Positions 1,138-54,693 of a stretch of DNA of 64,000 nucleotides are shown here, one piece after another (the stretch's first letter is position 1; each line of letters starts with the position of its first letter). The position numbers were made by a program, and so were the translations under genes. Below the pieces are notes generated by a model. The model saw only the letters and a list, made by a program, of their open reading frames with translations, ran no database searches and was not told where the DNA came from. The stretch lies in the IMG/VR virus record IMGVR_UViG_3300020049_004016. One strand, 5' to 3'. The stretch comes from an uncultured virus (IMG/VR IMGVR_UViG_3300020049_004016) (Duplodnaviria > Heunggongvirae > Uroviricota > Caudoviricetes).

Positions 1138-1623
1138 ATGAGAAAAATAATAGATATAACCCCTAACAAAATCCTTGACTTTGAAAAAGACACTGATGAT
1201 TTTATCTTCATGTCTGAAGACGGGTCACAACTTCCTATTAGAAAACCCCCTCAGAAACGTCTCGAAGCCCTGCTAAACGAGTACGACTACGAATTGCCTA
1301 ACAGCGCAAACAAAATGCGTCAGTACGTCTTAAACAAATTGTTCGAGGCTGCTGAAGAAGGCGAACCCGGTTTATCTTTAAAAGCACTAGAGATACTAGG
1401 CCGTGTTACCGAGATCGGATTATTCACTACACGCATCGAAGTTTCTGTTGCCGACAAGCCGACGGCTGATCTAGAGAATGACCTCAGCGTCCTTTTAAAG
1501 AACTACGCTAAAAAAGATACCGACCCCGTCCAAGAGATCACTGACGAAGAGTTACGCGGTTATTCTGAAGAGATAAGCGAAGGTGTGTTCTCAGAAGAGT
1601 ATGTTGAGGAAGACGAGGAGTGA
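1138..1623 (+). CDS. Probable terminase small subunit
   Basis: Immediately upstream of and overlapping terL; LKALEILGR...GLFTTRIEV motif typical of TerS C-terminal regions. Confidence 0.65.
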   Translation: MRKIIDITPNKILDFEKDTDDFIFMSEDGSQLPIRKPPQKRLEALLNEYDYELPNSANKMRQYVLNKLFEAAEEGEPGLSLKALEILGRVTEIGLFTTRIEVSVADKPTADLENDLSVLLKNYAKKDTDPVQEITDEELRGYSEEISEGVFSEEYVEEDEE

Positions 1624-4118
1624 GTATTCCACTAGGCGATCTGACAATCGATGAGGATCTGCTCAAACAAGCACTCTCAACTGCACCGTTGAGCGAACGT
1701 GCAAGACTGATCGCACTCATCGAAGAACTCAAACGCAGACAGAACCGCGAGTTCGCGCAACAGAACTTCTTAGCGTTCGTGCAACAAGTGTGGCCTTCCT
1801 TCATCTATGGTCGGCATCACGCTCGCATGGCTCAAGAGTTCGAAAAGGTAGTGTCTGGAGAGAACAAGCGACTCATTATCAATCTTGGGCCGAGGCATAC
1901 AAAATCTGAGCTTGCGTCTTATCTCTTACCTGCATGGTATTTGGGTAAGAATCCAAGTGAAAAAATAATACAATGTTCGCACACTGCTGAACTTGCGGTT
2001 GGTTTTGGTCGTAAGGTTCGTAACTTAGTTGGGTCCGCAGCATACCAAGAAATATTCCCTGGCGTTGAGCTTCAAGCTGACTCTAAAGCCGCTGGAAGAT
2101 GGAATACAAGTGCCGGAGGAAGTTACTATGCGATAGGCGTATCAGGCGCGGTTACAGGGATCGGGGGTTCGCTAATCATTATTGATGATCCACATGCCCT
2201 CAAATTAGACACTGAGATAGCCACCACTGAAGGTTTTAAAACTATTGGTACTGTTGCCGTTGGTGACTATGTTTTTGCACCTGACGGTACTCCAACAAAG
2301 GTTGTTGCAAAATCAGAAGTGCGGCACGATAGGGAAATATACAAAGTTACCACTGACGACAATGTAGAAATATTTTGTGATGGTGGGCATCTTTGGAACT
2401 ATCGATCGGATACAAAACTAACTGCTCCGCATAGAAACGCAACTACAAGAGATTTGTCTGAATGGAATAAAAAAAGTGCACCGTGTTTGCCAAGACACAG
2501 TGCAGTTCAATATCATGAAAAAGATTATTTAATACCACCGTATGTTTTAGGTGCATGGCTCGGTGATGGGACAAGTTCACTAGGAAGAATTACTTCTCAC
2601 CCTGATGATGCGCCATATACTAGAGAACAGTTTGAACGTGAAGGATATGAAACGACCACACTTACAGATCCTTATAGTTTTGGTGTATTAAAATTACGAG
2701 CACAACTTATAGAAAAAAATCTATTAAATAACAAACATATTCCTGAAGAATATTTAATAGGATCTATTGAACAAAGAATGGATCTACTACAAGGTTTGAT
2801 GGACACAGACGGTAATGTGACCGCACAAGGTCAATGTTGTTTTCAAAACACTAATAAAAGAATAATTGATGGCGCTATTCAAATCATACACAGCCTTGGT
2901 GTAAAAGCTAAAGTTCATTCGTATTTCGACACTAGAGAAAGACACGCATCAAGAAAATTAGATTATAGAATAACTTTCAAACTACAAGACGCGGCTAGAA
3001 TGCCTAGAAAAGCGTGTAGGACTTTTACCCCAACAGACAAAAGATGCAGAAGTATCAAGGTTGAAAGAACAACTGAACGTGCTTCTGTACAATGTATAAC
3101 AGTTGATAGAGAAGATGGGTTGTTTCTTATTGGTAGAGAGTATGTTGTTACACATAACTCAGAACAAGAGGCTGCCATAGCCGCATCTAACCCAGAAGTT
3201 TACGATAAGGTCTACGAGTGGTATACATCAGGACCTCGTCAGCGTCTTCAACCCCAAGGAGCGATAATTATCGTTCAGACTCGCTGGTCGAAACGAGATT
3301 TAACTGGACAAGTGAGACAAAAAGAGTTAGATGGGGGTGGTGATAAGTGGCGGTTAGTCGAACTGCCCGCGATATTGCCTAGCGGCAAACCTCTGTGGCC
3401 TGAGTTCTGGTCTATAGAAGAATTAGAAGCCACTAGAAATGCGATCGATGTCTCTAAATGGCAAGCGCAGTACCAACAGAACCCAACATCTGAAGAAGGG
3501 GCGATCGTAAAGCGAGATTGGTGGCAACGATGGGAACAAGATACACCTCCACCTACCAGTTTTATCCTACAAGCGTGGGATACCGCGTTTGAAAAACACA
3601 ATCGAGCGGATTATAGTGCGTGTACGACGTGGGGGATCTTCAATCTTCCCGATGAGAAAGGAATTGATCGAGCAAATATAATTTTGTTGGACGCTAAACG
3701 TGATCGACTAGAGTTTCCGCAGTTAAAAGAAAAAGTATTGGGCGAGTATCGTTATTGGGAACCCGATTCGCTAATTATTGAAAAGAAAGCATCAGGCGCA
3801 CCATTGATTTACGAACTTCGTCACATGGGAATCGTCGTATCCGACTTTACACCGACCCGTGGTAACGATAAGATCTCCCGATTGAATGCGATATCTGACA
3901 TCTTTTCTTCCGGTCGAGTTTGGGCTCCAAATACACGCTGGGCAGATGAGGTTATTGACGAAGTTGCCGCCTTCCCCGCAGGTCAACACGATGATTATGT
4001 CGATTGTGTCAGCATGTCCCTCGCCTTATTTAGGAAAGGTGGTTATATTAGCACCAAATTGGACCGAGAAGATGAAGAATACGAGTACCGACGTAAAACA
4101 AGTAACTCTTATTATTAA
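1620..4118 (+). CDS. terL: Terminase large subunit containing an intein
   Basis: RLIINLGPRHTKS Walker A-like, LIIIDDP Walker B, IVQTRW motif III, RNase H-like nuclease AWDTA...HDDYVD. Confidence 0.95.
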   Translation: MSIPLGDLTIDEDLLKQALSTAPLSERARLIALIEELKRRQNREFAQQNFLAFVQQVWPSFIYGRHHARMAQEFEKVVSGENKRLIINLGPRHTKSELASYLLPAWYLGKNPSEKIIQCSHTAELAVGFGRKVRNLVGSAAYQEIFPGVELQADSKAAGRWNTSAGGSYYAIGVSGAVTGIGGSLIIIDDPHALKLDTEIATTEGFKTIGTVAVGDYVFAPDGTPTKVVAKSEVRHDREIYKVTTDDNVEIFCDGGHLWNYRSDTKLTAPHRNATTRDLSEWNKKSAPCLPRHSAVQYHEKDYLIPPYVLGAWLGDGTSSLGRITSHPDDAPYTREQFEREGYETTTLTDPYSFGVLKLRAQLIEKNLLNNKHIPEEYLIGSIEQRMDLLQGLMDTDGNVTAQGQCCFQNTNKRIIDGAIQIIHSLGVKAKVHSYFDTRERHASRKLDYRITFKLQDAARMPRKACRTFTPTDKRCRSIKVERTTERASVQCITVDREDGLFLIGREYVVTHNSEQEAAIAASNPEVYDKVYEWYTSGPRQRLQPQGAIIIVQTRWSKRDLTGQVRQKELDGGGDKWRLVELPAILPSGKPLWPEFWSIEELEATRNAIDVSKWQAQYQQNPTSEEGAIVKRDWWQRWEQDTPPPTSFILQAWDTAFEKHNRADYSACTTWGIFNLPDEKGIDRANIILLDAKRDRLEFPQLKEKVLGEYRYWEPDSLIIEKKASGAPLIYELRHMGIVVSDFTPTRGNDKISRLNAISDIFSSGRVWAPNTRWADEVIDEVAAFPAGQHDDYVDCVSMSLALFRKGGYISTKLDREDEEYEYRRKTSNSYY
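2196..3158 (+). mobile_element. Class 3-type intein (321 aa) with LAGLIDADG homing endonuclease
   Basis: DDPH/ALKLDT...YVVTHN/SEQE junctions; block B GHLW, block F VQCITV, block G THN; LGAWLGDG and LQGLMDTDG motifs. Confidence 0.92.
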
Positions 4119-17380: not shown

Positions 17381-17535
17381 TGAGATTCTCTAGAGGTATG
17401 GGCGACATTAACCCAAGTAAAATTCCAAAGAAGATTGTTCGTAAGGACAACCCGAATAGTGTAGACTTGTACAAAAAAGGAGGGGTTGCCAAAAGCTTTC
17501 CTCCAGCCACTAAGTTTAAACAGGCTAAGAAATGA
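17380..17535 (+). CDS. Small basic protein (not in track)
   Basis: TAATG and ATGA overlaps on both sides; MRFSRGMGDINPSK...YKKGGV. Confidence 0.6.
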   Translation: MRFSRGMGDINPSKIPKKIVRKDNPNSVDLYKKGGVAKSFPPATKFKQAKK

Positions 17536-18212
17536 CAACGACGAATACCGCTACGTTCAATATGAGTCTCGATGAGATAATCGAAGAATGCTACGAACGC
17601 GTGGGTTCGGAAGCGAGATCGGGCTACGATTTCAAGACTGCTAGACGTTCACTTAATCTATTAACAATAGAATGGGCTTCAAAAGGCATAAATTTATGGC
17701 TCATAGAACAAGGCTCTATCCCTTTACTGACTAACATTGGCACGTATGATTTACCATCCGACACTATCGATTTGCTTGATCAAGTGGTACGTACAGGTAC
17801 CGGCACTACTCAAGTGGATATCAACTTATCTCGTATTTCTAGTTCTACTTACGCTACTATACCTGCTAAGAACACGTCGGCACGTCCTGTGCAGGTTTGG
17901 ATAAACAGACAAGCGCAAATACCACAAATCAACGTATGGCCTAAACCTAATAACGATAGTTATACGTTCGTCTATTGGCGCTTAAGACGTATCCAAGATG
18001 CCGGTAATGCGAGCAATACACAAGACATACCGTTTAGATTCTTACCTGCGCTGATCGCAGGGTTAGCATATCAGTTATCAATGAAGCTACCTGGCGTTGA
18101 TCCTAATCGTAGCGTTATGCTCAAAGCAGTTTATGATGAAGCGTTTCAAATCGCTAGTGAGGAAGATCGTGAAAAGGCATCTTTGCTTGTCGTCCCTAGG
18201 ATGCTTAGGTAG
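17532..18212 (+). CDS. Head-tail adaptor / tail tubular protein A-like
   Basis: TARRSLNLLTIEW..GINLW..RPVQVW..VWPKP..DIPFRFLPALIAGLAY. Confidence 0.7.
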   Translation: MTTTNTATFNMSLDEIIEECYERVGSEARSGYDFKTARRSLNLLTIEWASKGINLWLIEQGSIPLLTNIGTYDLPSDTIDLLDQVVRTGTGTTQVDINLSRISSSTYATIPAKNTSARPVQVWINRQAQIPQINVWPKPNNDSYTFVYWRLRRIQDAGNASNTQDIPFRFLPALIAGLAYQLSMKLPGVDPNRSVMLKAVYDEAFQIASEEDREKASLLVVPRMLR

Positions 18213-21110: not shown

Positions 21111-21779
21111 ATGACGTACAATGAACTTAAGCAAGCGATTCAAGATTTCTCAGAGTCCTATGAACCCTCGTTCATAGCGAACCTAGATCTCTTCATCGAG
21201 CAGTGCGAGAAGCGCGTCTATAACTCGGTACAGATACCTGTACTGAGAAAGAACGTGATGGGTGCTATGACAACCTCTAATAAGTATTTGTCTTGCCCTG
21301 ACGACTTTCTGTCTGTGTATTCTATCGCGGTGGTTAACAGTACCGGTGACTATAGTTATCTGTTAGACAAAGATGTCAGCTACATGCGTGAGGCGTATCC
21401 TAGACCGACTGATGTCGGTCTGCCCAAATATTATGGGATCTTCGGTCCGCAATCATCTAACTTATCCGAACTGTCTATCATCTTAGCGCCTACCCCTAAT
21501 GCGAATTATCCGGTCGAGTTGCATTACTACTACTACCCAGAGTCAATAACAACTGCGTCTTCAGGCACCACATGGTTAAGCGATAACTATGATCCCGTGC
21601 TATTATATGGGTCATTACGCGAGGCGATCATCTATATGAAAGGTGAGCAAGATATGGTGGGTTACTACGAACAAAAGTTTCAAGAAGCTCTCGCTCAACT
21701 CAAACGCCTATGCGACGGACTAGAGAGAGGCGACGCTTATCGTGAAGGTCAAACTAAAATACCACTTAAAGCATTATAA
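21111..21779 (+). CDS. Phage adaptor / head-completion protein
   Basis: MTYNELKQAIQD...GLPKYY...LAPTP...ELHYYYYP...LLYGSLREA. Confidence 0.7.
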   Translation: MTYNELKQAIQDFSESYEPSFIANLDLFIEQCEKRVYNSVQIPVLRKNVMGAMTTSNKYLSCPDDFLSVYSIAVVNSTGDYSYLLDKDVSYMREAYPRPTDVGLPKYYGIFGPQSSNLSELSIILAPTPNANYPVELHYYYYPESITTASSGTTWLSDNYDPVLLYGSLREAIIYMKGEQDMVGYYEQKFQEALAQLKRLCDGLERGDAYREGQTKIPLKAL

Positions 21780-47735: not shown

Positions 47736-49088
47736 TTATTTTTCAAAGTGTTTATTTTTCAATGCGTTAAGTAGATTAGCTTGCGTCACATCTTTGGCAG
47801 CGAGTGCGGTTATCAATCTTTCGTCGATGGTATCTCTTGCCACTATATGTATGATACGCACAGGTCGGGTCTGTCCTTGTCTATACACACGCCCATTGAA
47901 CTGTTGATAAAGTTCGAGTGACCAGTTGAGACCGAACCATACGATGATCCCACCGCCTTGTTGTAAATTTAGACCAAAACCGGCTGACTGTGGGTGTGCA
48001 AGAAGTAGTGGTATCTCTCCACCGTTCCACCGTGTGATTGTATCTGGACTCTTATCAAGCTGTTGCGCTTGTGGGAAGCGTTTTTGTAGACGCTCAAGAT
48101 CTGTTTTAAAATTATATGCAACTAAAATGTTCTCCCCTTCGTTCTGCTCAATGATGTCTGCGAGCGCATCGAGTTTAACTGAGTGTATCTCTGCCCAGTT
48201 TTTATGCTCATCGGTATAGATTGCTCCAACCGAATATTGAAGCAACTTGTTTGCAAGCACTGCTGCTGATATTGCTTCTACCACATCACCGGAATCGAGT
48301 TCTAAAAGAAGATGTTTTTCAAACTCGTCATATTGTTTTTGGATCTTTGCAGGTAGCTCTACATACTCGGTCAAATCGATACGCTCAGGTAACTCTAGAT
48401 AATCCTCCGCACTCATAGACAGAACCATATGTTGGATCGCATTATGTATCTGTATATCAGCGCCTACTCGTGGTGTGTATTTATAACCCATGTAATCAGG
48501 TTCAAAGAAGCGTTGCTTGTACGCGGTCATAGTGCGACCTAATGCGATACCACTATCTAATAGATAAATCTGCGCCCATAGATCGAGCAGACCGTTCGAC
48601 GCTGGTGTGGCAGTCAGACCGATAAAATAGTTAGTGAACGGTAAGATTTTCTTTAAATACTTATGACGTTGTGACGCAGAGCTCTTTAGACTTGATAATT
48701 CATCGACTACCACCATATCGAAAGGCCACTTCTTACCGTACAATTTGACCAACCACGGGATGTTTTCTCGATTGATGGTGTACACGTCTGCTGTACGATG
48801 TAACGCGGTCAGACGATCTTTTTCTGTGCCCGTGCACACTTGTACTTTTAAGTGTGTTAAGTGCCGCCAATTGGCTGCTTCAGCGTGCCAGACTGAGTTA
48901 GCGACTCGGAGCGGTGCTATAACGAGTACCTTATGCACGTTCATCTGATCCTGAAGATCGGAAATAGCCGTAAGTGTTATCGTGGTCTTGCCTAATCCTA
49001 AATCTAACAGTAAAGCACAACGTCTCTTCTCTTTGATAAACTCGACCGCTTTGGTTTGATACGCGTGCATATCACTTTTTAAATGCAC
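47736..49088 (-). CDS. SNF2-family helicase
   Basis: LLLDLGLGKT, VIAPLRV, VVVDELS, GLTATP, GFGLNLQ, QFNGRVYRQGQ; GGAGG RBS before GTG 49088. Confidence 0.92.
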   Translation of the reverse strand: MHLKSDMHAYQTKAVEFIKEKRRCALLLDLGLGKTTITLTAISDLQDQMNVHKVLVIAPLRVANSVWHAEAANWRHLTHLKVQVCTGTEKDRLTALHRTADVYTINRENIPWLVKLYGKKWPFDMVVVDELSSLKSSASQRHKYLKKILPFTNYFIGLTATPASNGLLDLWAQIYLLDSGIALGRTMTAYKQRFFEPDYMGYKYTPRVGADIQIHNAIQHMVLSMSAEDYLELPERIDLTEYVELPAKIQKQYDEFEKHLLLELDSGDVVEAISAAVLANKLLQYSVGAIYTDEHKNWAEIHSVKLDALADIIEQNEGENILVAYNFKTDLERLQKRFPQAQQLDKSPDTITRWNGGEIPLLLAHPQSAGFGLNLQQGGGIIVWFGLNWSLELYQQFNGRVYRQGQTRPVRIIHIVARDTIDERLITALAAKDVTQANLLNALKNKHFEK

Positions 49089-49344
49089 GAGCGTCCTCCA
49101 TTGAGTTGATAACGCGCACATCACAACCGAGTGCACGTCTACGTTCATGATCGAGTTCTTGTAACGGTGTCGCGTGTTTACCTTCGTTCTTCAGTTCAAC
49201 GAATATGATCACTCCTCCAGGTAGTGTTACGATACGATCAGGTACTGACCTTCGTCCGCTTATGAACTTTTCAGCCATACCACCCAATTCTTTAACTCGC
49301 TTGACGAGTGCTTGCTCAATGTGTCGTTCAAGCATTATATCCAA
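49072..49344 (-). CDS. VRR-NUC domain nuclease
   Basis: LERHIE...VPDRIV...IFVELK...TPLQ. Confidence 0.9.
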   Translation of the reverse strand: MDIMLERHIEQALVKRVKELGGMAEKFISGRRSVPDRIVTLPGGVIIFVELKNEGKHATPLQELDHERRRALGCDVRVINSMEDARAFKK

Positions 49345-50131
49345 CCTCTTTTAATAATTCGTTAGCCATACTGATGTACACTGGGTAGTCCACATCTTGC
49401 GGGAAGATGTCTGGTAGATCCATTAACGGTCTTGCGCCACCTGACATCGGCACTCGGTTTGAATTCTTCGCGTAGTGTATGCAGATCTCTTTATCAACGT
49501 CACGCGAGTAGTAAAAGCGTACGGCTTTACCGAGGTAACCACCTTGCCATGTTGCACCGCCAGTCACCTTACGCACTGTGACGAACTGAGTTATGTCGTT
49601 ACATTCCATGATGGTTTGCTCGATAGGGGTGTTGCGCGCCACGCAATACGCAACCGCTTTCTGTACGATCGAACAGTTCGGGTTCTTAGCAAGACCTGTG
49701 GATGCGAAGATACCTTTGCCTTTGATCTTACCGTCGGTTTTAACAGCGATGTAGTTATTAACATCTCTCGATACGAGTTTTGAATACTCGGTAGTTTCTA
49801 ACTGATAACCTGTATCTAGCTCCCAATCAAAAGCGACTTCCTCACAAGCATCTAAAAGGGATAAGGGAGCATAGCAAACAATACCATCAGTGTTTGCAGA
49901 TACTATTTGTATACCTTTATCCTCCATGCGTTCTATTAAAGACAATAGCGCAAGCTGTCCGGTCAAGGTTGTTTGTAATAATAATTCTGGCGCATAGAGA
50001 ACACTGTATTTTGATCCTAGCTTGCCGAACGAGCCATTGGTCGAGAGTTTTTTTGAATCTGATTCTGTTTTGTATTTTAGTAGTTCAGCTTTGGCTTCGG
50101 ACAATCTATTTTTAATTTCTATTTTAGTCAT
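49328..50131 (-). CDS. Family B DNA polymerase, C-terminal part (motifs B and C, thumb)
   Basis: KKLSTNGSFGKLG (motif B), VSANTDGI (motif C), RDVNNY, KGKG. Confidence 0.9.
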   Translation of the reverse strand: MTKIEIKNRLSEAKAELLKYKTESDSKKLSTNGSFGKLGSKYSVLYAPELLLQTTLTGQLALLSLIERMEDKGIQIVSANTDGIVCYAPLSLLDACEEVAFDWELDTGYQLETTEYSKLVSRDVNNYIAVKTDGKIKGKGIFASTGLAKNPNCSIVQKAVAYCVARNTPIEQTIMECNDITQFVTVRKVTGGATWQGGYLGKAVRFYYSRDVDKEICIHYAKNSNRVPMSGGARPLMDLPDIFPQDVDYPVYISMANELLKEVGYNA

Positions 50132-50132
50132 T

Positions 50133-50864
50133 TTATTTATCTCTCTTTTTCCAAATATAATTCATATATGTTGGTTTATATCCATTACAAACCGAATATA
50201 TATTTTGCCATTTATACGTAGGATTTTCTAAAATTATATCGTCGACAGAATCCCATGTTCTTATAAAAACATTTTCTCTAGTGAATTGATCAAATATATA
50301 TTTCCTTTTAGCTATTTTAACTTTGGCTACCATATCTTTTCTTTTGTCAAAGTCAGACCATGTTTGTATTGAACTGATTGACATTTTGTTTCTCCATTCT
50401 TCACCATAAATAAGGCCTCCAGAATGTCTATCTTTTGCAATATCAGACATTTTTTGTTTTTGTTCGTCTGACCATCGATTACCATAGTTAGGGTTTTTCT
50501 CTCCCAAATTTGTCCCTTTCAATTCGTCACAATAATCTTTAGCCCATTTTCCCCCCGATAAAGCATCTTGACGAATGTTATATCCAAATCCCCTATCTTT
50601 TGTATTATAGTGATCCATCCAATATGCTTCTCTATCTAATAAAATAGATTTATCATAAGTTTCAAATGTTTCTATAATTTCAAATTTAAAAACATCTGCT
50701 CCGTAAATTCTTCCGTCAGCGTGGAGATGTTTGTTAAAATCTTTATGTCTATTTTCTTTTTTTAAATTACATTTATGGCTATACCATCGAGATGTGGTAT
50801 CTTTACACGCCCCGATGTATTTCTTATTATTAACAGTGTTTGTGATTGAATAAATAGCGATCAT
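50133..50864 (-). CDS. GIY-YIG homing endonuclease inserted in the polymerase gene
   Basis: IAIYSITNTVNNKKYIG..RW..H..REAYW..GYN; GEKNPNYG and SDEQKQKMS NUMOD3-like repeats; own RBS AGGAGA. Confidence 0.9.
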   Translation of the reverse strand: MIAIYSITNTVNNKKYIGACKDTTSRWYSHKCNLKKENRHKDFNKHLHADGRIYGADVFKFEIIETFETYDKSILLDREAYWMDHYNTKDRGFGYNIRQDALSGGKWAKDYCDELKGTNLGEKNPNYGNRWSDEQKQKMSDIAKDRHSGGLIYGEEWRNKMSISSIQTWSDFDKRKDMVAKVKIAKRKYIFDQFTRENVFIRTWDSVDDIILENPTYKWQNIYSVCNGYKPTYMNYIWKKRDK

Positions 50865-50893
50865 GATGTTCTCCTAGTTGGGATAATACCATG

Positions 50894-51982
50894 CTACATG
50901 TTTTTTAATTCGTTTTCAAGATTATTTATTTCTTTAGTTAACTCAGCGATCTTTTTCTTTGCAAAGTTTCTTTTTTGAACAATATCTTTATATATTTTTA
51001 AGAAAGGTTTACCCATAGATTTTGGTGCTAATTTCTGCTGTAAGATGATGCTTGGATAGTAGCCCAAACAATCTTTCTCTTTTAGGAACCATCCTTCTTT
51101 AACATTTATATACTGCGACTTCTCACATGAGTGTAGACCACCAATACCCATCTGATACTTACGACCGCCAATTCTAATGTCTTCTTTCTTTAACCAATCT
51201 GGTAGCACTAGCGCACCGTTGATACCTAACTTAAACGGTTCTTTGATAACACGTGCCAAGATGTTGTTCAATTGCTCGCTCTTGAACGATACGATCTCAG
51301 GGTCTTGATAATAGAACTTCGCGTCATCAGCAACGGTAGGTCGTGAGGGTTTCTTACCGGTAATCTTTTGCAGTTCGCTGGAGATGACCGTCTCAGCAAT
51401 CTGCGCATCAGACTTAGAGCGCAAATCCATACCGTACTGCTCAGTCATCGACTCGCGTAGCGTGATCTGAGGGATGAGTGCTTGATAGAGTTCTTGTGTG
51501 GTCTGTAAGTCGTTCTCACAATAGTTTCTTAGCTCAACCCGTTGCTCAGGTGAGATGAGTGCAGACGGTTCGATAGGTAGGTCTTGCAGTTTCTTTGAGT
51601 GCAGCCTTCCACCGTAGATCTTCAAGGAAGACATACCAGGTGCTACTTCGATAAGATCAATATGATCCCATTTTGGGCAGGGTAGATTGTTATCTTGGTA
51701 AGTCCGATACGAGGATCGGTTTGATCCGATGATCGAGTCGCATAGACTTTTTATGTGTTTGTTGTTCCATCCACAGAGTGCTGCCACGATAATGGGTAAG
51801 TCGAAGTTATTCCCGTTGAAGCTGATCGTGGTGTTCTTACGCATGATATTGGACAGAACTGCTAGATCTAGCGGATGGTCTTCGTACAACTCAAGGTGGA
51901 TAACTTTACCAGTCTCTACGCATTTGGCCGCGAAGAGAAAGTAGTTAGTGTAGATCTCTGTATCGATGATTATCTTTTTCAT
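50894..51982 (-). CDS. Family B DNA polymerase, N-terminal part (3'-5' exonuclease and motif A)
   Basis: IIDTEIY (ExoI), FNGNNFDL (ExoII), YCENDL (ExoIII), GIGGLHS, DCLGYYPSII (motif A). Confidence 0.9.
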   Translation of the reverse strand: MKKIIIDTEIYTNYFLFAAKCVETGKVIHLELYEDHPLDLAVLSNIMRKNTTISFNGNNFDLPIIVAALCGWNNKHIKSLCDSIIGSNRSSYRTYQDNNLPCPKWDHIDLIEVAPGMSSLKIYGGRLHSKKLQDLPIEPSALISPEQRVELRNYCENDLQTTQELYQALIPQITLRESMTEQYGMDLRSKSDAQIAETVISSELQKITGKKPSRPTVADDAKFYYQDPEIVSFKSEQLNNILARVIKEPFKLGINGALVLPDWLKKEDIRIGGRKYQMGIGGLHSCEKSQYINVKEGWFLKEKDCLGYYPSIILQQKLAPKSMGKPFLKIYKDIVQKRNFAKKKIAELTKEINNLENELKNM

Positions 51983-52008
51983 TTTATGTTTCCTTGATAG
52001 GGTAGCTA

Positions 52009-52506
52009 TCAATTAATTGGTGCTGACGGGTGGTATATCTTTTTAGCATCTAAATATGCTTGATATGCTTCTTCTTTGGTATCAAAATATCCTAAATGTA
52101 TGTTTTTATAATTTGCTTTTATTCTAGCTCTCCATTTTTTATTTTTCTTATTTACTCCTGGATATCCTGATGTGTTTATACTTTTTAATGTTTGATTATG
52201 ACAATTCTCCATGTGTGTGACAAGTCGTAAATTGCATAATCTATTGTCAGACCTATTTCTATTTATATGATCTATCCTTAAGTGTTCTGGTATATCTCCA
52301 TTTGAAATTATCCAAGCCAACCTATGAGACTTATATGGTTTTCTATCAACCACTATGTATGGATACCCATAATGATCTAAAGGACCAAAAATAACTGTAT
52401 CTTTTGTAGCGTTAGACCCAACCGTAATTAATCTTTTAAAACTACCAACTTCAGGATCATATTCAAACAACTCTAACAATCTTTCTTGCGAAGGATGTGG
52501 GTTCAT
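52009..52506 (-). CDS. HNH endonuclease with AP2 DNA-binding domain
   Basis: HRLAW..IDHINRNRSDNRLCNLRLVT..EN; SGYPGV..KWRARI..IHLGYFDTKEEA. Confidence 0.92.
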   Translation of the reverse strand: MNPHPSQERLLELFEYDPEVGSFKRLITVGSNATKDTVIFGPLDHYGYPYIVVDRKPYKSHRLAWIISNGDIPEHLRIDHINRNRSDNRLCNLRLVTHMENCHNQTLKSINTSGYPGVNKKNKKWRARIKANYKNIHLGYFDTKEEAYQAYLDAKKIYHPSAPIN

Positions 52507-52517
52507 TTCTTTATCTC

Positions 52518-52626
52518 ATAAAAAAAGCTACACTCTCAATTCGCGGTAGGAATGGCTTGAAATTATGCCACGCGGTTTGAAAATATAGCTTTGTTTAAAT
52601 TTCAATTTAAGGTTCCTACACCTGAA
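52518..52626 (-). ncRNA. c4/CI-like structured leader 1 (upstream of the HNH-AP2 gene)
   Basis: Nested stems ending in a U-run; bulge and loop complementary to upstream leader segments; homologous to 53983-54089. Confidence 0.7.
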
Positions 52627-52649
52627 ACTAATTATAACACGGTAATGAG

Positions 52650-52672
52650 AAAGCCCCAACTTAATGGGGCTT
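52650..52672 (-). terminator. Terminator hairpin after the SSB gene
   Basis: AAGCCCCA-N7-TGGGGCTT. Confidence 0.7.
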
Positions 52673-52679
52673 AATTTAT

Positions 52680-53204
52680 TTAGAATACGTCGTCTTCGTC
52701 TGAATCGAATGCGTCGAAATCGTTTAGACTGCCTGAAGAACCATCTCCAAAAGGTTGACCATCCTTGAAGAACTGAATGCCTAATAGAGTAGCATTTATA
52801 CGCTTACCCCACGCGTTATCTTGACTCCAGATCTCGATACTCGCATTGACATAACAACCTGAGTAAGGCTTACCATCATCTTCGGCCAGTGGAGACTTGT
52901 CTCTGTCGATAACCAGTGGACGTTTTTTAGAGCTGGCTTTTAAACTGAAGTGATTAGCGTAACCATCATAGTCAACCAAATCACCGTCACGTAAGCACAA
53001 CTTTTCAGGGCCAACTTTAGCACCCTTAAGATTGGTCTTGATCAGTTCTTTGATCTGAGCTTGGATTGATTCGATCTGATCCGCTTGCGTTTCTTTGTCA
53101 AGCAGGAAAGTACCTTCGAACCCAGTTTCTTCACCGCTGAATACAGCTTTCTTGAATAATGAAGGGAAAGACAGACGTACGTTTTTTAAGATTATTTTAG
53201 CCAT
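52680..53204 (-). CDS. Single-stranded DNA-binding protein (DUF2815-like)
   Basis: VRLSFPSLF; CLRDGD; YSGCYVNASI; GIQFFKDG; acidic tail ending in Phe. Confidence 0.88.
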   Translation of the reverse strand: MAKIILKNVRLSFPSLFKKAVFSGEETGFEGTFLLDKETQADQIESIQAQIKELIKTNLKGAKVGPEKLCLRDGDLVDYDGYANHFSLKASSKKRPLVIDRDKSPLAEDDGKPYSGCYVNASIEIWSQDNAWGKRINATLLGIQFFKDGQPFGDGSSGSLNDFDAFDSDEDDVF

Positions 53205-53252
53205 TGTTATTTTTCCTTTTAGGATTGAGTTTTAAGTTTTATTTTTACAGCG

Positions 53253-53287
53253 TGTTAAGTATAACTTAACTTTTATTCGGATGTCAA
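53253..53287 (-). promoter_or_regulatory. sigma70 promoter with overlapping 19-bp operator
   Basis: TTGACA-N18-TATACT on the - strand; TGTTAAG-TATAA-CTTAACT at 53253-53271. Confidence 0.75.
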
Positions 53288-53970
53288 ATTTTATTTTCTA
53301 ATCTTGCCCAACTAACCGACTGAGCATATTCTGTTACTTTTTGTTTTGCGAACACATATATCTCTTTATAGTGCATGTTTTCATTCATACCTTTTCGTAT
53401 CGCTGTGGAAGCTATGTTCTCAGCGACTTGTAAAAATCCTATCTGCATAAGATCTAGTGTATCTCTAAAATTACCAGAAGAACTTTTACTTTGTTCCAAC
53501 ATATCTAAAGCTTTATATTCCATCTTTGTTAAATTAGCATAATACATTTTTGCATTCACACTAGATTGATCGGTTGCATACTCTACAAAATCTTGGATAG
53601 TATCTGTCGTTTCTTTTCTAACAGCTTTGCCTTGAAGTCTTGCCGCTTTCCAATCTAGATTTGAACGTGTTTTTAATAACTCAGACTCCATCATATTGAA
53701 AGCTTCAAGAAACTTCTCTTTCCAAACCATTGCTTTCTTACCAGTAAAACCCATAACTAACATTGAGAAACCATTTCTAGTTATTACGTATTCTTGATAA
53801 GTCCTACCTTTATCATCTTGATAATCAATTTGCTCAAAATTGAGCCGATTAAATTCACTACTAGATTCTAAATTTTCTATTGCTCTGATAACATTCTTGT
53901 GAGCTTTGCCAAAATACTCAGCGATTATCCTAGAAGTGGTTGTCATTTCTTTAGTAACTAACTCATTCAT
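53284..53970 (-). CDS. Rha family phage regulatory protein
   Basis: TTSRIIAEYFGKAHKNVIRAI; NF...Y.DDKGR; ITRNGFSMLVMGFTGKKA..WKEKFLEAFNMME. Confidence 0.92.
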   Translation of the reverse strand: MNELVTKEMTTTSRIIAEYFGKAHKNVIRAIENLESSSEFNRLNFEQIDYQDDKGRTYQEYVITRNGFSMLVMGFTGKKAMVWKEKFLEAFNMMESELLKTRSNLDWKAARLQGKAVRKETTDTIQDFVEYATDQSSVNAKMYYANLTKMEYKALDMLEQSKSSSGNFRDTLDLMQIGFLQVAENIASTAIRKGMNENMHYKEIYVFAKQKVTEYAQSVSWARLENKI

Positions 53971-54122: not shown

Positions 54123-54377
54123 TCAAATTTTATTTTTCTCCTCGCATTCTTGTAAAAACTTTTGAAATGCTTCGATAGCATCCCAATAACCATCTTGAGT
54201 CAAACTGCCTTGTTGTCTCAATTTTGCGTGCAATTCCATTTTCTCTGTATTACTCAAAAACCCACGTTCAGGCTGTGCAAGAAACTCTTGAATATCAATT
54301 TTTAGTTCTGGACACACTAGATTATGATATTGCATCTCATCTAAGCAGCTTTCTAACAAATCCCGTTCTTTAGACAT
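54123..54377 (-). CDS. MSKER/LAQPE family protein C
   Basis: MSKERDLL..FLAQPER. Confidence 0.7.
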   Translation of the reverse strand: MSKERDLLESCLDEMQYHNLVCPELKIDIQEFLAQPERGFLSNTEKMELHAKLRQQGSLTQDGYWDAIEAFQKFLQECEEKNKI

Positions 54378-54444: not shown

Positions 54445-54693
54445 CTACTCATCATCTACCCCTATATCGTGTGCCATTTCAATAGCTCTCCCTAGAATTG
54501 TTGGGTAACCACTATAATAATTTGTTAAATCCTCAAGGCGTTCATTGCTCAAAGGCTGAAGTTTCTTTTCAGGTTGGGCGAGTAGCTCTATGGCTCTACC
54601 AATTAGAACATCAGCGTTACGCTGTAGACCGCCCATGCTCGTGCATTCTAATAAGATTTTCATATCCTTTATTAACTCTCTTTCTTTAGACAT
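54445..54693 (-). CDS. MSKER/LAQPE family protein D
   Basis: MSKERELI..LAQPEK..PLSN..AHDIGVDDE. Confidence 0.7.
   Translation of the reverse strand: MSKERELIKDMKILLECTSMGGLQRNADVLIGRAIELLAQPEKKLQPLSNERLEDLTNYYSGYPTILGRAIEMAHDIGVDDE

What the first reader, a model, noticed from the sequence alone, without database searches (positions are those of the whole stretch)
49328..51982. DNA polymerase B split at the fingers tip by an intronless GIY-YIG, with coiled-coil-like ends on both halves
Seen: the N-half ends YKDIVQKRNFAKKK-IAELTKEINNLENELKNM*, and the C-half starts MTKIEIKNRLSEAKAELLKYK-TESDSKKLSTNGSFGK. Only 29 nt and 1 nt separate the halves from the endonuclease ORF, leaving no room for an intron core, and no intein motifs are present. 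Known: in family B polymerases these two helices form the fingers hairpin between motifs A and B, and Aeh1 nrdA is functionally split by mobE without splicing. Inference: the element carries amphipathic heptad extensions that zip the two chains into a heterodimeric polymerase with a composite active site, a splicing-free way to live inside an essential gene. The AT-rich tract appears to reach motif A (DCLGYYP), suggesting co-converted, cleavage-resistant sequence.
Basis: partly seen in the sequence, partly recalled or inferred. Interest (0 to 1): 0.88.

Follow-up and report, generated by a model that had tools for sequence, protein, structure and literature searches.

The report
Endonuclease cassette splits phage DNA polymerase
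An uncultured phage encodes its only DNA polymerase as two proteins because a selfish endonuclease gene sits at the tip of the enzyme's "fingers", and the inserted cassette brings two matching helices that probably help hold the halves together; this is a variant of a trick already known from T4-like phages.

Summary
On the minus strand lie a polymerase N-half (50894-51982), a GIY-YIG endonuclease gene (50133-50864) and a polymerase C-half (49328-50131), 29 nt and 1 nt apart. The protein is a distant family B polymerase. The break falls exactly at the tip of its two-helix fingers hairpin. The arrangement is widespread: 22 of 120 listed N-side relatives and about 58 of 120 C-side relatives are split forms with heptad-patterned ends. 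In 13 of 13 split loci an endonuclease gene (GIY-YIG or an HNH type) lies between the halves. The helical ends travel with the endonuclease as a mobile cassette. Split alleles are scattered over the polymerase tree, and a near-identical phage carries an intact short-finger allele that differs only in a ~1.37-kb tract starting at motif A. A complex model pairs the two end helices and completes the palm sheet. Rare intact alleles have almost equally long fingers, so the arms are not exclusive to split genes, and nobody has shown they are needed. Finger-tip-split PolB (T4-like gp43A/B), a fully active engineered split Pfu polymerase, and cassette-derived assembly tails (Aeh1 NrdA) are all published. 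This is a new variant of a known kind, of moderate interest.

The parts
50894..51982 (-). Polymerase N-half cistron (362 aa plus TAG): exonuclease domain, N-terminal part of the palm with motif A, and the first fingers helix
   Evidence: ORF. phrog_1252 positions 53-397/663, E 4.9e-95. Aligns to residues 6-358 of the intact Loktanella phage polymerase.
51044..51073 (-). Motif A (DCLGYYPSII, N-half residues 304-313)
   Evidence: Sequence. D304, Y309 and P310 are invariant in 22 split N-halves. The motif definition is recalled knowledge of family B polymerases.
50897..50950 (-). N-arm: the part of the first fingers helix that is extra relative to short-finger alleles (IAELTKEINNLENELKNM, residues 345-362)
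   Evidence: I/L/M/V/F occupy columns 348, 352, 355 and 359 in 95-100% of 22 rows, and 345 and 362 in 59-70%. These residues touch the C-half in the complex model.
50862..50893 (-). Inter-cistronic junction. It holds the conserved motif ATGGTATTATCC and a small hairpin that pairs with the Shine-Dalgarno sequence and start codon of the endonuclease gene.
   Evidence: The motif is conserved in 5 of 5 GIY-YIG-type split loci. Hairpin -8.1 kcal/mol, z -0.63 here. In relatives z is -1.59, -3.33, -2.27 and -3.98.
50133..50864 (-). Free-standing GIY-YIG homing endonuclease gene (243 aa plus TAA)
   Evidence: PF01541 E 5.3e-11. phrog_314 'homing endonuclease' E 1.9e-25. Orthologues sit at the same site in L009, L024, L013 and L137 (47-66% identity by segment). 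pN 0.16-0.31 against pS 0.59-0.78.
50066..50131 (-). C-arm: start codon and the extra part of the second fingers helix (MTKIEIKNRLSEAKAELLKYKT, residues 1-22)
   Evidence: I/L/M/V/F occupy columns 6 and 10 in 100% and columns 13 and 17 in 78% of 32 rows. The start lies 1 nt after the endonuclease stop, with a purine-rich GAGAG 9 nt upstream.
49328..50131 (-). Polymerase C-half cistron (267 aa plus TGA): second fingers helix with motif B, rest of the palm with motif C, and the thumb
   Evidence: ORF. phrog_1252 positions 388-654/663, E 4.2e-88. Aligns to residues 363-636 of the Loktanella polymerase.
50021..50050 (-). Motif B (KLSTNGSFGK, C-half residues 28-37)
   Evidence: K28, N32, G36 and K37 are invariant in 32 C-halves.
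49883..49900 (-). Motif C (SANTDG, C-half residues 78-83)
   Evidence: S78, N80, T81, D82 and G83 are invariant in 32 C-halves. These strands pair with the motif A strand of the N-half in the complex model.
49740..51106 (-). Swapped (co-converted) tract relative to the near-identical phage contig L007, which has an intact short-finger polymerase
   Evidence: Nucleotide identity is 0.87-1.0 per 60-nt bin outside the tract and 0.19-0.87 inside. Amino-acid identity is 97% / 68% / 69% / 98% for N1-290 / N291-340 / C28-130 / C131-267. GC3 is 0.19-0.35 inside against 0.53 outside.

Best explanation
The window is almost a whole genome of an uncultured phage. Its only DNA polymerase, a small and divergent family B enzyme, is encoded as two cistrons. 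A mobile homing-endonuclease cassette sits at the tip of the fingers hairpin, between motifs A and B.

The cassette consists of five parts in order: (1) an extension of the first fingers helix ending in a stop codon, (2) a short junction whose hairpin probably throttles translation of the endonuclease, (3) the GIY-YIG gene, (4) a start codon placed one base after its stop, and (5) an extension of the second fingers helix.

Nothing is spliced. The two polypeptides are translated separately from one transcript and assemble non-covalently. The motif A strand of the N-half joins the motif C strands of the C-half in one palm sheet, giving a composite active site. The two extended amphipathic helices pack antiparallel as a lengthened fingers hairpin.

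The cassette spreads between related phages by recombination, most likely endonuclease-triggered gene conversion. It replaces the short finger tip of naive alleles and drags along variable lengths of flanking polymerase sequence. Rare intact long-finger alleles are most simply read as cassettes that lost the endonuclease gene.

Shown: the anatomy, the position of the break, the conservation, the mobility of the cassette together with its arms, and the allele polymorphism. Inferred: separate translation, assembly, activity, the role of the arms, endonuclease activity and its target.
For: Anatomy:
-.

Family B membership:
- phmmer of the intact relative P0008 against PDB sequences gives archaeal PolB 1s5j at E 7.5e-6 and pol alpha.
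- Foldseek of its AlphaFold model (pLDDT 88, pTM 0.81) gives archaeal PolB chains at E 6.8e-16, probability 1.00, TM 0.42-0.52.

Break at the hairpin tip:
- The model has helices 327-359 and 364-389 with loop 360-363.
- The N-half aligns up to residue 358 and the C-half from residue 363 of the intact Loktanella polymerase, so no residue is missing.

Functional conservation:
- 22 of the 120 listed relatives of the N-half are 359-376 aa split forms at 52-100% identity.
- About 58 of the 120 listed relatives of the C-half are 264-298 aa forms that start 31-44 residues before motif B.
- pN is well below pS in both halves, in the endonuclease and in the arms.
- The heptad hydrophobic columns are conserved.
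- Pfam finds no other polymerase among 79 ORFs of the window.

Assembly:
- The complex model scores ipSAE 0.86 (runs 0.85, 0.86, 0.86) against a best control of 0.01.
- The mark was reached by 116 of 157 solved complexes and by 2 of 215 mismatched pairs.
- The runs agree in at least 98% of contacts, and the partner's pLDDT is at least 91.
- Contacts include N 298-303 with C 84-89 and 113-116, and heptad-spaced N 331-362 with C 1-39.

Mobility of the cassette with its arms:
- On a tree of the region upstream of the cassette, the 21 split rows need 19 changes. Well-supported branches force at least 16. The shuffled mean is 19.7, and 192 of 500 shuffles are as low.
- Tails are more alike than backbones across lineages: P0003/P0016 86% against 64%, P0006/P0015 80% against 62%, P0040/P0049 84% against 65%. 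They are less alike within a lineage: P0001/P0003 65% against 94%.
- In 11 of 13 sister pairs (12 split versus short-finger, 1 split versus long intact) the divergent tract begins between -21 and +45 residues from motif A. In the other 2 pairs (P0026/P0034 and P0006/P0009) a low-identity window already appears about 100 residues upstream.
- The window and L007 differ only in 49740-51106.
- A relative's contig in a lake-water run joins 50029 to 50997 with 94 letters in place of 967, while other contigs in runs X1 and X4 cover the endonuclease gene.

Endonuclease always present:
- 13 of 13 split loci among 183 distinct loci have an ORF of at least 173 aa between the halves.
- 5 are GIY-YIG and 8 are phrog_374 'HNH endonuclease'.

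Published precedent:
- Finger-tip-split gp43 of T4-like phages, and a fully active engineered split Pfu (PMC3061061, passages).
- The split gene 43 products of phage 25 co-purify and polymerise (PMC2988022, passage).
- The Aeh1 NrdA tails that arrived with mobE are essential (PMC3045599, abstract and Discussion).
Against: - There are no transcript, protein or activity data for this or any related split allele.
- Intact alleles with 71-75 residues between the anchors exist, so long helices are not exclusive to split genes. The direction of change is not resolved: endonuclease loss from a cassette, or insertion into a pre-existing long finger.
- The predicted interface is dominated by the palm. 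In the Aeh1 precedent the tails were not required for the heterodimer. The arms may therefore be dispensable for binding.
- Halves of a split gene tend to pass the complex test through likeness to solved single-chain PolB structures.
- Among split loci the endonucleases are no more alike than the backbones (47-66% against 52-64%). This fits old co-divergence as well as homing, so recent endonuclease-driven transfer is not shown directly.
- The window's own junction hairpin is not better than shuffles (z -0.63).
- The Rfam negative is weak evidence. Rfam also found nothing in Flavobacterium phage Fpv1, where part of motif A lies outside the annotated CDSs and an intron is likely.
- The tree is the quick one, because the careful search did not finish. 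Two rows were dropped, five rows had no label, and three rows labelled 'long' were mislabelled short alleles.
Confidence: 0.72

Rival explanations
1. The long helices are simply a native long-finger variant of this polymerase family. Endonuclease genes landed in its tolerant tip loop because any break there is harmless. The halves are held by the palm and thumb interface alone, and the arms are not an adaptation to the split.
For: Intact long-finger alleles occur in several lineages, including a cultured phage (Loktanella pCB2051-A; L055, L006 and L193; P0005/7/8 and P0074/75). Two unrelated endonuclease classes use the same site. Pfu polymerase split near its short finger tip is fully active without added arms (PMC3061061, abstract). 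Most of the 396 predicted contacts lie outside the arms.
Against: Split forms outnumber intact long forms (22 against 5 true long among 120 proteins; 13 against 3 with cassette-like arms among 183 loci). Each intact long allele sits next to a split one on the tree. The arms of split alleles are 5-9 residues longer in total than intact long fingers, and their heptad columns are 95-100% hydrophobic right up to the termini.
Confidence: 0.2
2. A cryptic self-splicing intron, with the endonuclease ORF filling almost all of it, is removed from the mRNA, so a single polymerase is made.
For: The closest endonuclease relatives in cultured phages (Fpv1 group, 34% identity) sit in the homologous polymerase gene at motif A with a 224-nt non-coding leader. 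There, GYYPS is encoded upstream of the annotated start without a start codon, which points to an intron that Rfam missed. A blank Rfam result is therefore not decisive.
Against: Only 29 nt and 1 nt are non-coding here. No polymerase residue is missing from the two ORFs. Both ends are homologous to translated fingers helices of intact alleles. Synonymous sites in the arms and the endonuclease are near saturation (pS 0.46-0.86) while the protein heptad pattern is kept, which does not fit a conserved ribozyme core. There is no Rfam match at E up to 10.
Confidence: 0.04
3. The polymerase gene is broken and non-functional, and the phage replicates with host enzymes.
For: No direct evidence. Function has not been measured.
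Against: The same split with intact reading frames, start and stop signals recurs at 52-91% identity in dozens of protein clusters. pN is well below pS. The catalytic motifs are invariant.
Confidence: 0.03
4. The ends are a split intein and the halves are joined by protein trans-splicing, as in the 'fractured genes' with a free-standing endonuclease between split-intein halves.
For: The gene order (half, endonuclease, half) is the same as in fractured genes (PMC2677866, search listing with the start of the abstract) and in phage MIJ3 PolB (PMC6892783, passages).
Against: The extra ends are only 18 and 22 residues long. Pfam finds no intein family. The ends align with the fingers helices of intact alleles and are predicted helices.
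Confidence: 0.01

Closest known systems
Finger-tip-split gp43A/gp43B PolB of T4-like phages 25, 44RR, 31, 65 and 133, with the seg43(25) endonuclease gene in phage 25 (Petrov et al. 2006, 2010). I did not see these papers. I know them through passages of PMC3061061 and PMC2988022.
   Same: A family B polymerase is cut within the finger tip into two cistrons. A free-standing GIY-YIG-type endonuclease gene lies between them in at least one phage. The two products co-purify and polymerise. The fingers are described as a hotspot for insertion elements.
   Different: This is a different and very distant PolB clade: a ~600 aa enzyme of phrog_1252, 13-16% identical to solved PolBs in the fold alignment. 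Here every split locus examined has an endonuclease gene (13 of 13), with none separated by a bare spacer as reported for 44RR. The break lies between two regular heptad helices that move with the cassette. Homology of the cassettes to the T4-like ones was not tested.
Aeromonas phage Aeh1 nrdA-a / mobE / nrdA-b (PMC3045599, abstract and Discussion read)
   Same: A free-standing endonuclease splits an essential gene. There is no RNA or protein splicing. Extra C- and N-terminal tails arrived with the insertion. The endonuclease is held down by an RNA structure. The active site is composite.
   Different: There the tails are short, oppositely charged peptides that are essential for dimerisation of heterodimers but not for binding of the halves to each other. 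Here the ends are amphipathic helices that continue an existing hairpin. Their necessity is untested, and the host enzyme is a polymerase.
Engineered split Pfu polymerase (PMC3061061, abstract and passages)
   Same: Family B polymerase. The break is near the finger tip. Translation is coupled by termination and reinitiation. Activity is fully retained.
   Different: It is a laboratory artefact without added arms or an endonuclease. The split lies inside the first helix of a very short finger.
'Fractured genes': split inteins flanking a free-standing endonuclease gene (PMC2677866, search listing with the start of the abstract)
   Same: A selfish endonuclease gene lies between two halves of an essential gene, and the cassette supplies the means to mend the protein.
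   Different: Mending there is covalent, by trans-splicing. Here there are no intein blocks, and the proposed mending is non-covalent.
T4 topoisomerase gp39/gp60 split by mobA (named in PMC2988022, and PMC3045599)
   Same: An endonuclease-associated split of an essential replication enzyme, with tail-like extensions.
   Different: Different enzyme. The role of the tails there is also only proposed.

Membership tests
Family B DNA polymerase | Polymerase motifs A, B and C in that order | tested here: met
   DCLGYYPSII, KLSTNGSFGK and SANTDG. The key residues are invariant in 22 and 32 relatives. The motif definitions are recalled.
Family B DNA polymerase | PolB fold over the whole length (exonuclease, palm, fingers, thumb) | tested here: met
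   The model of the intact relative P0008 (76% identical to the N-half) has pLDDT 88. Foldseek best hit is 5mdn_A at E 6.8e-16, probability 1.00. 372 chains score E <= 0.001, and the listed ones are PolB or pol alpha.
Family B DNA polymerase | Significant sequence match to known members | tested here: met
   phmmer against PDB: 1s5j E 7.5e-6, pol alpha E 3.2e-4. Pfam matches only sub-threshold exonuclease models (PF10108, 19.6 bits against 24).
Free-standing GIY-YIG homing endonuclease (Seg / I-TevI type) | GIY-YIG catalytic domain | tested here: met
   PF01541 E 5.3e-11, 43.1 bits against a cut-off of 22.6.
Free-standing GIY-YIG homing endonuclease (Seg / I-TevI type) | C-terminal DNA-binding module | tested here: inconclusive
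   NUMOD3 scores 19.7 bits against a cut-off of 20.4. The C-terminus WQNIYSVCNGYKPTYMN is conserved in 4 of 4 orthologues.
Free-standing GIY-YIG homing endonuclease (Seg / I-TevI type) | Presence/absence polymorphism between close genomes, with co-converted flanks | tested here: met
   The window against L007. The start of the divergent tract varies among 13 sister pairs. A contig joins across the cassette.
Free-standing GIY-YIG homing endonuclease (Seg / I-TevI type) | Site-specific cleavage of the endonuclease-less allele, and homing | not testable with these tools
   Needs enzyme assays and mixed infections.
Group I intron with endonuclease ORF | Ribozyme core flanking or overlapping the ORF | tested here: not met
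   No Rfam match at E <= 10 in 49000-52600, and only 29 nt and 1 nt are non-coding. The Rfam blank alone is weak evidence.
Group I intron with endonuclease ORF | Host-protein sequence interrupted so that ORFs lack residues or start signals | tested here: not met
   No polymerase residue is missing. Both halves have their own stop or start codon.
Split intein ('fractured gene') | Intein N- and C-blocks at the broken ends | tested here: not met
   Pfam finds no intein family. The extra ends are 18 and 22 residues long and helical.
Cassette-derived assembly tails (Aeh1 NrdA type) | Terminal sequences at the break that uninterrupted homologues lack | tested here: inconclusive
   They are extra relative to 144 of 183 distinct loci (44 residues against 80). 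Eight intact loci have 55-75 residues, and three of these have similar helices.
Cassette-derived assembly tails (Aeh1 NrdA type) | Tails inherited together with the endonuclease gene | tested here: met
   Tail type goes with endonuclease class...KTM/KNM with GIY-YIG, and ...AKLTV or ...AITKKNIQ with phrog_374. Tails and backbones are discordant.
Cassette-derived assembly tails (Aeh1 NrdA type) | Tails required for activity | not testable with these tools
   Needs deletion mutants and assays.
Finger-tip-split PolB (gp43A/gp43B type) | Break between the two fingers helices, giving two cistrons | tested here: met
Finger-tip-split PolB (gp43A/gp43B type) | Common descent with the T4-like split genes | not tested
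   No gp43 sequence was compared. The polymerase belongs to another PolB clade (phrog_1252).

The most novel reading that the evidence does not exclude
The cassette is a self-contained 'cut-and-zip' module. It carries a homing endonuclease gene together with two complementary heptad helices that are essential to hold the broken polymerase together. In a single gene-conversion event it can turn any short-finger polymerase of this family into a working two-subunit enzyme, as a non-covalent counterpart of split inteins. Two unrelated endonuclease classes have adopted the same design, and the open finger tip may even change which nucleotides the enzyme accepts, as it does in split Pfu.
Probability: 0.3. 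Interest if true: 0.65.

Novelty: new variant of a known kind. Interest (0 to 1): 0.5.

Why it matters
[quoted passage not shown] Only one case, Aeh1 NrdA, has been dissected.

This polymerase family offers a natural and unusually clean test set. In backbones that are 91-98% identical there is a short intact allele (L007), a long intact allele (L006) and a split allele (the window). Dozens of further cassette variants exist, with two endonuclease classes.

Expressing these few genes would show three things:
- whether helical arms carried by a selfish element are what makes the break harmless;
- how far co-conversion reshuffles the catalytic core of an essential enzyme;
- whether a split finger tip alters polymerase properties.

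It also warns annotators that 360-aa and 267-aa 'hypothetical proteins' in many phage contigs are the two subunits of one polymerase.

Tried and rejected
- Rfam at E <= 10 on 49000-52600: no match. I treat this as weak evidence, because Rfam at E <= 1 also found no intron in Fpv1 and L005.
- Megablast of 49000-52600 against phage records: no match.
- Own assembly: not held. The nearest record, G001, is a 41-kb fragment without the polymerase.
- Earlier notes by place and by sequence: nothing.
- Sequencing runs: no RNA holder listed, so splicing could not be looked at in reads.
- MFE fold of the Fpv1 leader: z 0.26, uninformative.
- Promoter-like and terminator-like scan of 49000-53400: counts not above shuffles (12 against 13.6; 3 against 2.8), and no minus-strand terminator-like site.
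- tRNA scan: no tRNA genes, so no suppressor tRNA to read the TAG.
- Read-through of the TAG would add only 10 codons before a TGA (read).
- The first regex classifiers mis-anchored motif A or B in some rows. Five of 81 were unscored, and P0021, P0023 and P0093 were wrongly called 'long'. A stricter anchor was used, where 18 of 183 loci still gave no anchor pair.
- The careful tree search did not finish within the time limit. The quick tree was used instead.
- A split allele without any gene between the halves was looked for and not found: 0 of 13 split loci.
- Literature searches found no paper on a split in this polymerase family. They cover only Creative Commons PubMed Central papers and bioRxiv. 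The Petrov 2006 and 2010 papers could not be read.

Full report
**1. The observation**

One search lists three consecutive minus-strand ORFs.
- 50894..52012 is the N-half: 362 aa from the ATG at 51982, the start that relatives share.
- 50133..50864 is the middle ORF of 243 aa.
- 49328..50131 is the C-half of 267 aa.

One search shows 29 nt between the TAG of the first ORF and the ATG of the second, with an AGGAG in front of that ATG. One base separates the TAA of the second ORF from the ATG of the third.

Pfam calls the middle ORF GIY-YIG (E 5.3e-11) with a sub-threshold NUMOD3, and finds no intein family in either half. GC falls to 0.235-0.375 between 50000 and 51199, against 0.41-0.515 on both sides.

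**2. What the host gene is**

Both halves match one phage polymerase family contiguously: phrog_1252 positions 53-397 and 388-654 of 663.

tblastn finds the N-half in 595 phage records, all below 60% identity. The best is 49.6%, in Pseudoalteromonas phages PHS21 and AL. The gene order polymerase, VRR-NUC nuclease, helicase is the same as in the window.

An intact relative, P0008, matches archaeal PolB and pol alpha by sequence (E 7.5e-6). Its AlphaFold model (pLDDT 88) matches PolB chains over the whole length (Foldseek E 6.8e-16, TM 0.42-0.52, 13-16% identity). It is therefore a small and very divergent family B polymerase.

Pfam scans of 79 ORFs of the window found no other polymerase. The window is nearly the whole phage: the longest contig carrying this protein is 64,545 bases.

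**3. Where the break is**

In the model of the intact long-finger relative, helix 327-359 and helix 364-389 form a hairpin joined by the loop 360-363. The window's stop and start codons fall in that loop.

Against the intact Loktanella phage polymerase, the N-half aligns up to residue 358 and the C-half from residue 363. Nothing is missing and nothing needs to be spliced in.

**4. Are the ends extra?**

I measured the number of residues between a motif A anchor and a motif B anchor in 250 fetched loci, which reduce to 183 distinct loci.
- 144 loci have exactly 44 residues.
- 8 intact loci have 55 to 75 residues.
- 13 loci are split in the fingers.
- 18 loci gave no anchor pair.

The window has 80 residues by the same measure. 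The ends are therefore extra by 36 residues relative to the great majority.

Three intact loci (L055 with 71, L006 with 73, L193 with 75), the proteins P0005/7/8 and P0074/75 and the Loktanella phage carry similar helices uninterrupted. Split alleles are only 5-9 residues longer than the longest intact ones.

**5. The heptad pattern is real and conserved**

Among 22 split N-halves, I/L/M/V/F occupy columns 348, 352, 355 and 359 in 95-100% of rows, and columns 345 and 362 in 59-70%. Among 32 C-halves, they occupy columns 6 and 10 in 100% of rows and columns 13 and 17 in 78%. The spacing is 3-4-3-4.

**6. How common the split is**

Of the 120 best relatives of the N-half, 22 (the window's own included) are 359-376 aa proteins that end in such a tail, at 52-100% identity. 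Of the 120 best relatives of the C-half, about 58 are 264-298 aa proteins that start 31-44 residues before motif B. I read 32 of these; 31 had such a head, and one, P0205, was a fragment of a short-finger gene and was dropped.

Among the 60 best-listed cultured-phage records for the C-half, none aligns from residue 1-6. Most align from residue 21, and Loktanella from residue 7. The other 870 records were not inspected.

**7. What lies between the halves elsewhere**

All 13 split loci have an ORF of at least 173 aa in the gap.
- Five have GIY-YIG genes of the window's family: L009, L013, L024, L137 and L138.
- Eight have genes of phrog_374 'HNH endonuclease' (E 1e-37 to 1e-53) with no or only sub-threshold Pfam matches: L133, L135, L177, L182, L219, L226, L246 and L254.
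- L226 also carries a Mom-like gene in the gap.

Tail type goes with endonuclease class. No split without a resident gene was seen.

**8. Selection**

Between the window and L009, L024 and L013, the three genes are collinear at about 68% nucleotide identity. pN is 0.12-0.33 and pS is 0.58-0.89 for the halves and the endonuclease. The arms give pN 0.16-0.38 and pS 0.46-0.85. All three genes, and the arms, are kept as proteins.

**9. The cassette is mobile and includes the arms**

(a) A tree of the region upstream of the cassette was built from 118 rows. P0025 and P0110 were dropped for lacking the anchor, and it is the quick tree. It needs 19 changes to explain the 21 split rows, which is no better than shuffled labels (mean 19.7). 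Well-supported branches force at least 16 changes. Many split rows have a short-finger sister at branch lengths of 0.004-0.05.

(b) Tails are more alike than backbones across lineages (86 vs 64%, 80 vs 62%, 84 vs 65%) and less alike within a lineage (65 vs 94%).

(c) In 11 of 13 sister pairs (12 split versus short-finger, 1 split versus long intact) the divergent tract starts anywhere from 21 residues before to 45 residues after the motif A aspartate. In 2 pairs a low-identity window already appears about 100 residues upstream. This variability is what co-conversion tracts of different length would give.

(d) The contig L007 is 92-96% identical to the window in the flanks (3,121 nt at 95.7%) and has an intact short-finger gene. 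The two differ only in 49740-51106. Amino-acid identity by segment is 97 / 68 / 69 / 98%. GC3 drops from 0.53 to 0.19-0.35 in exactly that tract.

(e) In lake-water runs a relative's contig joins 50029 to 50997 with 94 letters in place of 967. Another contig bridges 49747 to 51108 with 488 letters. Other contigs of runs X1 and X4 cover the endonuclease gene with 1-19 differences (laid at 85% likeness, so these are relatives and not necessarily the same phage).

**10. Assembly**

The complex model of the two halves (alignments of 22 and 32 rows) scored ipSAE 0.86 in the median of three runs, against 0.01 for the best of three controls. This mark was reached by 116 of 157 solved complexes and by 2 of 215 mismatched pairs. 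The runs agree in at least 98% of contacts, and the partner's pLDDT is at least 91.

The tightest contacts join N 298-303 (the motif A strand) to C 84-89 and 113-116 (the motif C strands). Heptad-spaced residues N 331-362 and C 1-39 are also in the interface.

Halves of a split gene can pass through likeness to solved single-chain PolB structures. The result therefore supports binding but does not show it, and it cannot say whether the arms are needed.

**11. Expression signals (inferred)**

The junction motif ATGGTATTATCC follows the stop codon in 5 of 5 GIY-YIG-type loci, and an exact search found 4 IMG/VR contigs with it. It pairs with the Shine-Dalgarno sequence and start codon of the endonuclease gene. 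The hairpin is weak in the window (z -0.63) and stronger in relatives (z -1.59, -3.33, -2.27, -3.98).

This parallels the RNA structure that holds down mobE (PMC3045599, Figure 5 legend). The start of the C-half one base after the endonuclease stop, with a purine-rich stretch 9 nt upstream, suggests independent or coupled initiation.

**12. Rivals**

- Cryptic intron: unlikely for the reasons in sections 3 and 8, although the Rfam blank is weak evidence. In Fpv1 the closest cultured-phage relative of the endonuclease (34% identity) sits at motif A of the homologous polymerase behind a 224-nt leader. GYYPS is encoded there without a start codon, so an intron is likely, yet Rfam found none.
- Split intein: excluded by size, by the absence of intein blocks and by homology of the ends to fingers helices.
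- Pseudogene: excluded by conservation.
- The serious rival: the arms are a native long-finger variant and are dispensable, and the tip is merely a tolerant landing site. I give this 0.2.

**13. What is known**

- PMC3061061 (abstract and passages) states that natural splits occur in the finger tip of gp43 in T4-like phages 133, 44R, 31, 25 and 65, with cistrons 2 bp to 3 kb apart. It also reports that Pfu polymerase split near the finger tip is fully active.
- PMC2988022 (passage) reports that the split gene 43 products of phage 25 co-purify and polymerise.
- PMC3045599 (abstract and Discussion) shows that tails which arose with the mobE insertion are essential for the split Aeh1 reductase, although not for heterodimer formation. 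It predicts similar tails elsewhere.

Earlier notes of this scan pointed me to these papers, and I checked them.

What is new here:
- a different PolB clade;
- regular helical arms that extend the hairpin and demonstrably move with the cassette;
- two endonuclease classes with the same design;
- a natural allelic series in near-identical backbones.

**Verdict**

The finding is real and well explained. It is a new variant of a known kind, with interest about 0.5.

Noticed in passing
window 1620-4115 (+): The large terminase is 832 aa long. It carries a Hom_end homing-endonuclease domain (PF05204, E 1.7e-8, residues 374-468) ahead of the Terminase_6C nuclease domain. This looks like an intein with a LAGLIDADG-type endonuclease inside TerL, which would be a third selfish element in this genome.
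   Followed up: no
window 52009-52506 (-): A free-standing HNH_3 + AP2 endonuclease gene (E 2.3e-15) ends at the polymerase start. It is AT-rich (GC3 0.20). It is absent at this place in the close relatives L006 and L007. L006 has a Mom-family gene there instead.
   Followed up: partly
L006 3974-6533; also L061 and L036: A 91%-identical relative has intact long fingers, but its polymerase is split at a second site after motif C (...NNYIAVYK* / MIKYKGKG...) by a different GIY-YIG gene of 216 aa. This site coincides with the right-hand end of the window's swapped tract (about 49740).
   Followed up: partly
L226 1136-2565: Between the two polymerase halves lie two genes: a Mom-like DNA-modification gene (PF25680, E 6.9e-40) and the HNH-type endonuclease gene. 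The gap has therefore acquired cargo.
   Followed up: no
L004 (Flavobacterium phage Fpv1, NC_031914) 2700-3700; L005: The RefSeq annotation shows 'DNA polymerase', 'homing endonuclease' and 'DNA polymerase' in a row. The break is at motif A, a 224-nt non-coding leader follows, and GYYPS is encoded just upstream of the annotated second start, after a stop and without a start codon. This suggests an unannotated intron, yet Rfam finds none at E <= 1. To my recollection the leader looks like a group I intron core.
   Followed up: partly
window 50862-50893 and the same place in L009, L024, L013, L137: The motif GGTATTATCC lies right after the polymerase stop codon and pairs with the ribosome-binding site of the endonuclease gene. 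Three of five hairpins have z below -2.
   Followed up: partly
window 17532-18209 and 21111-21776 (+): Two separate genes both match the SU10 adaptor protein family (E 1.4e-11 and 1.2e-21).
   Followed up: no
window 54126-54377 and 54448-54693 (-): Two neighbouring small ORFs (84 and 82 aa) begin alike (MSKERDLL... and MSKERELI...) and look like a tandem duplicate.
   Followed up: no
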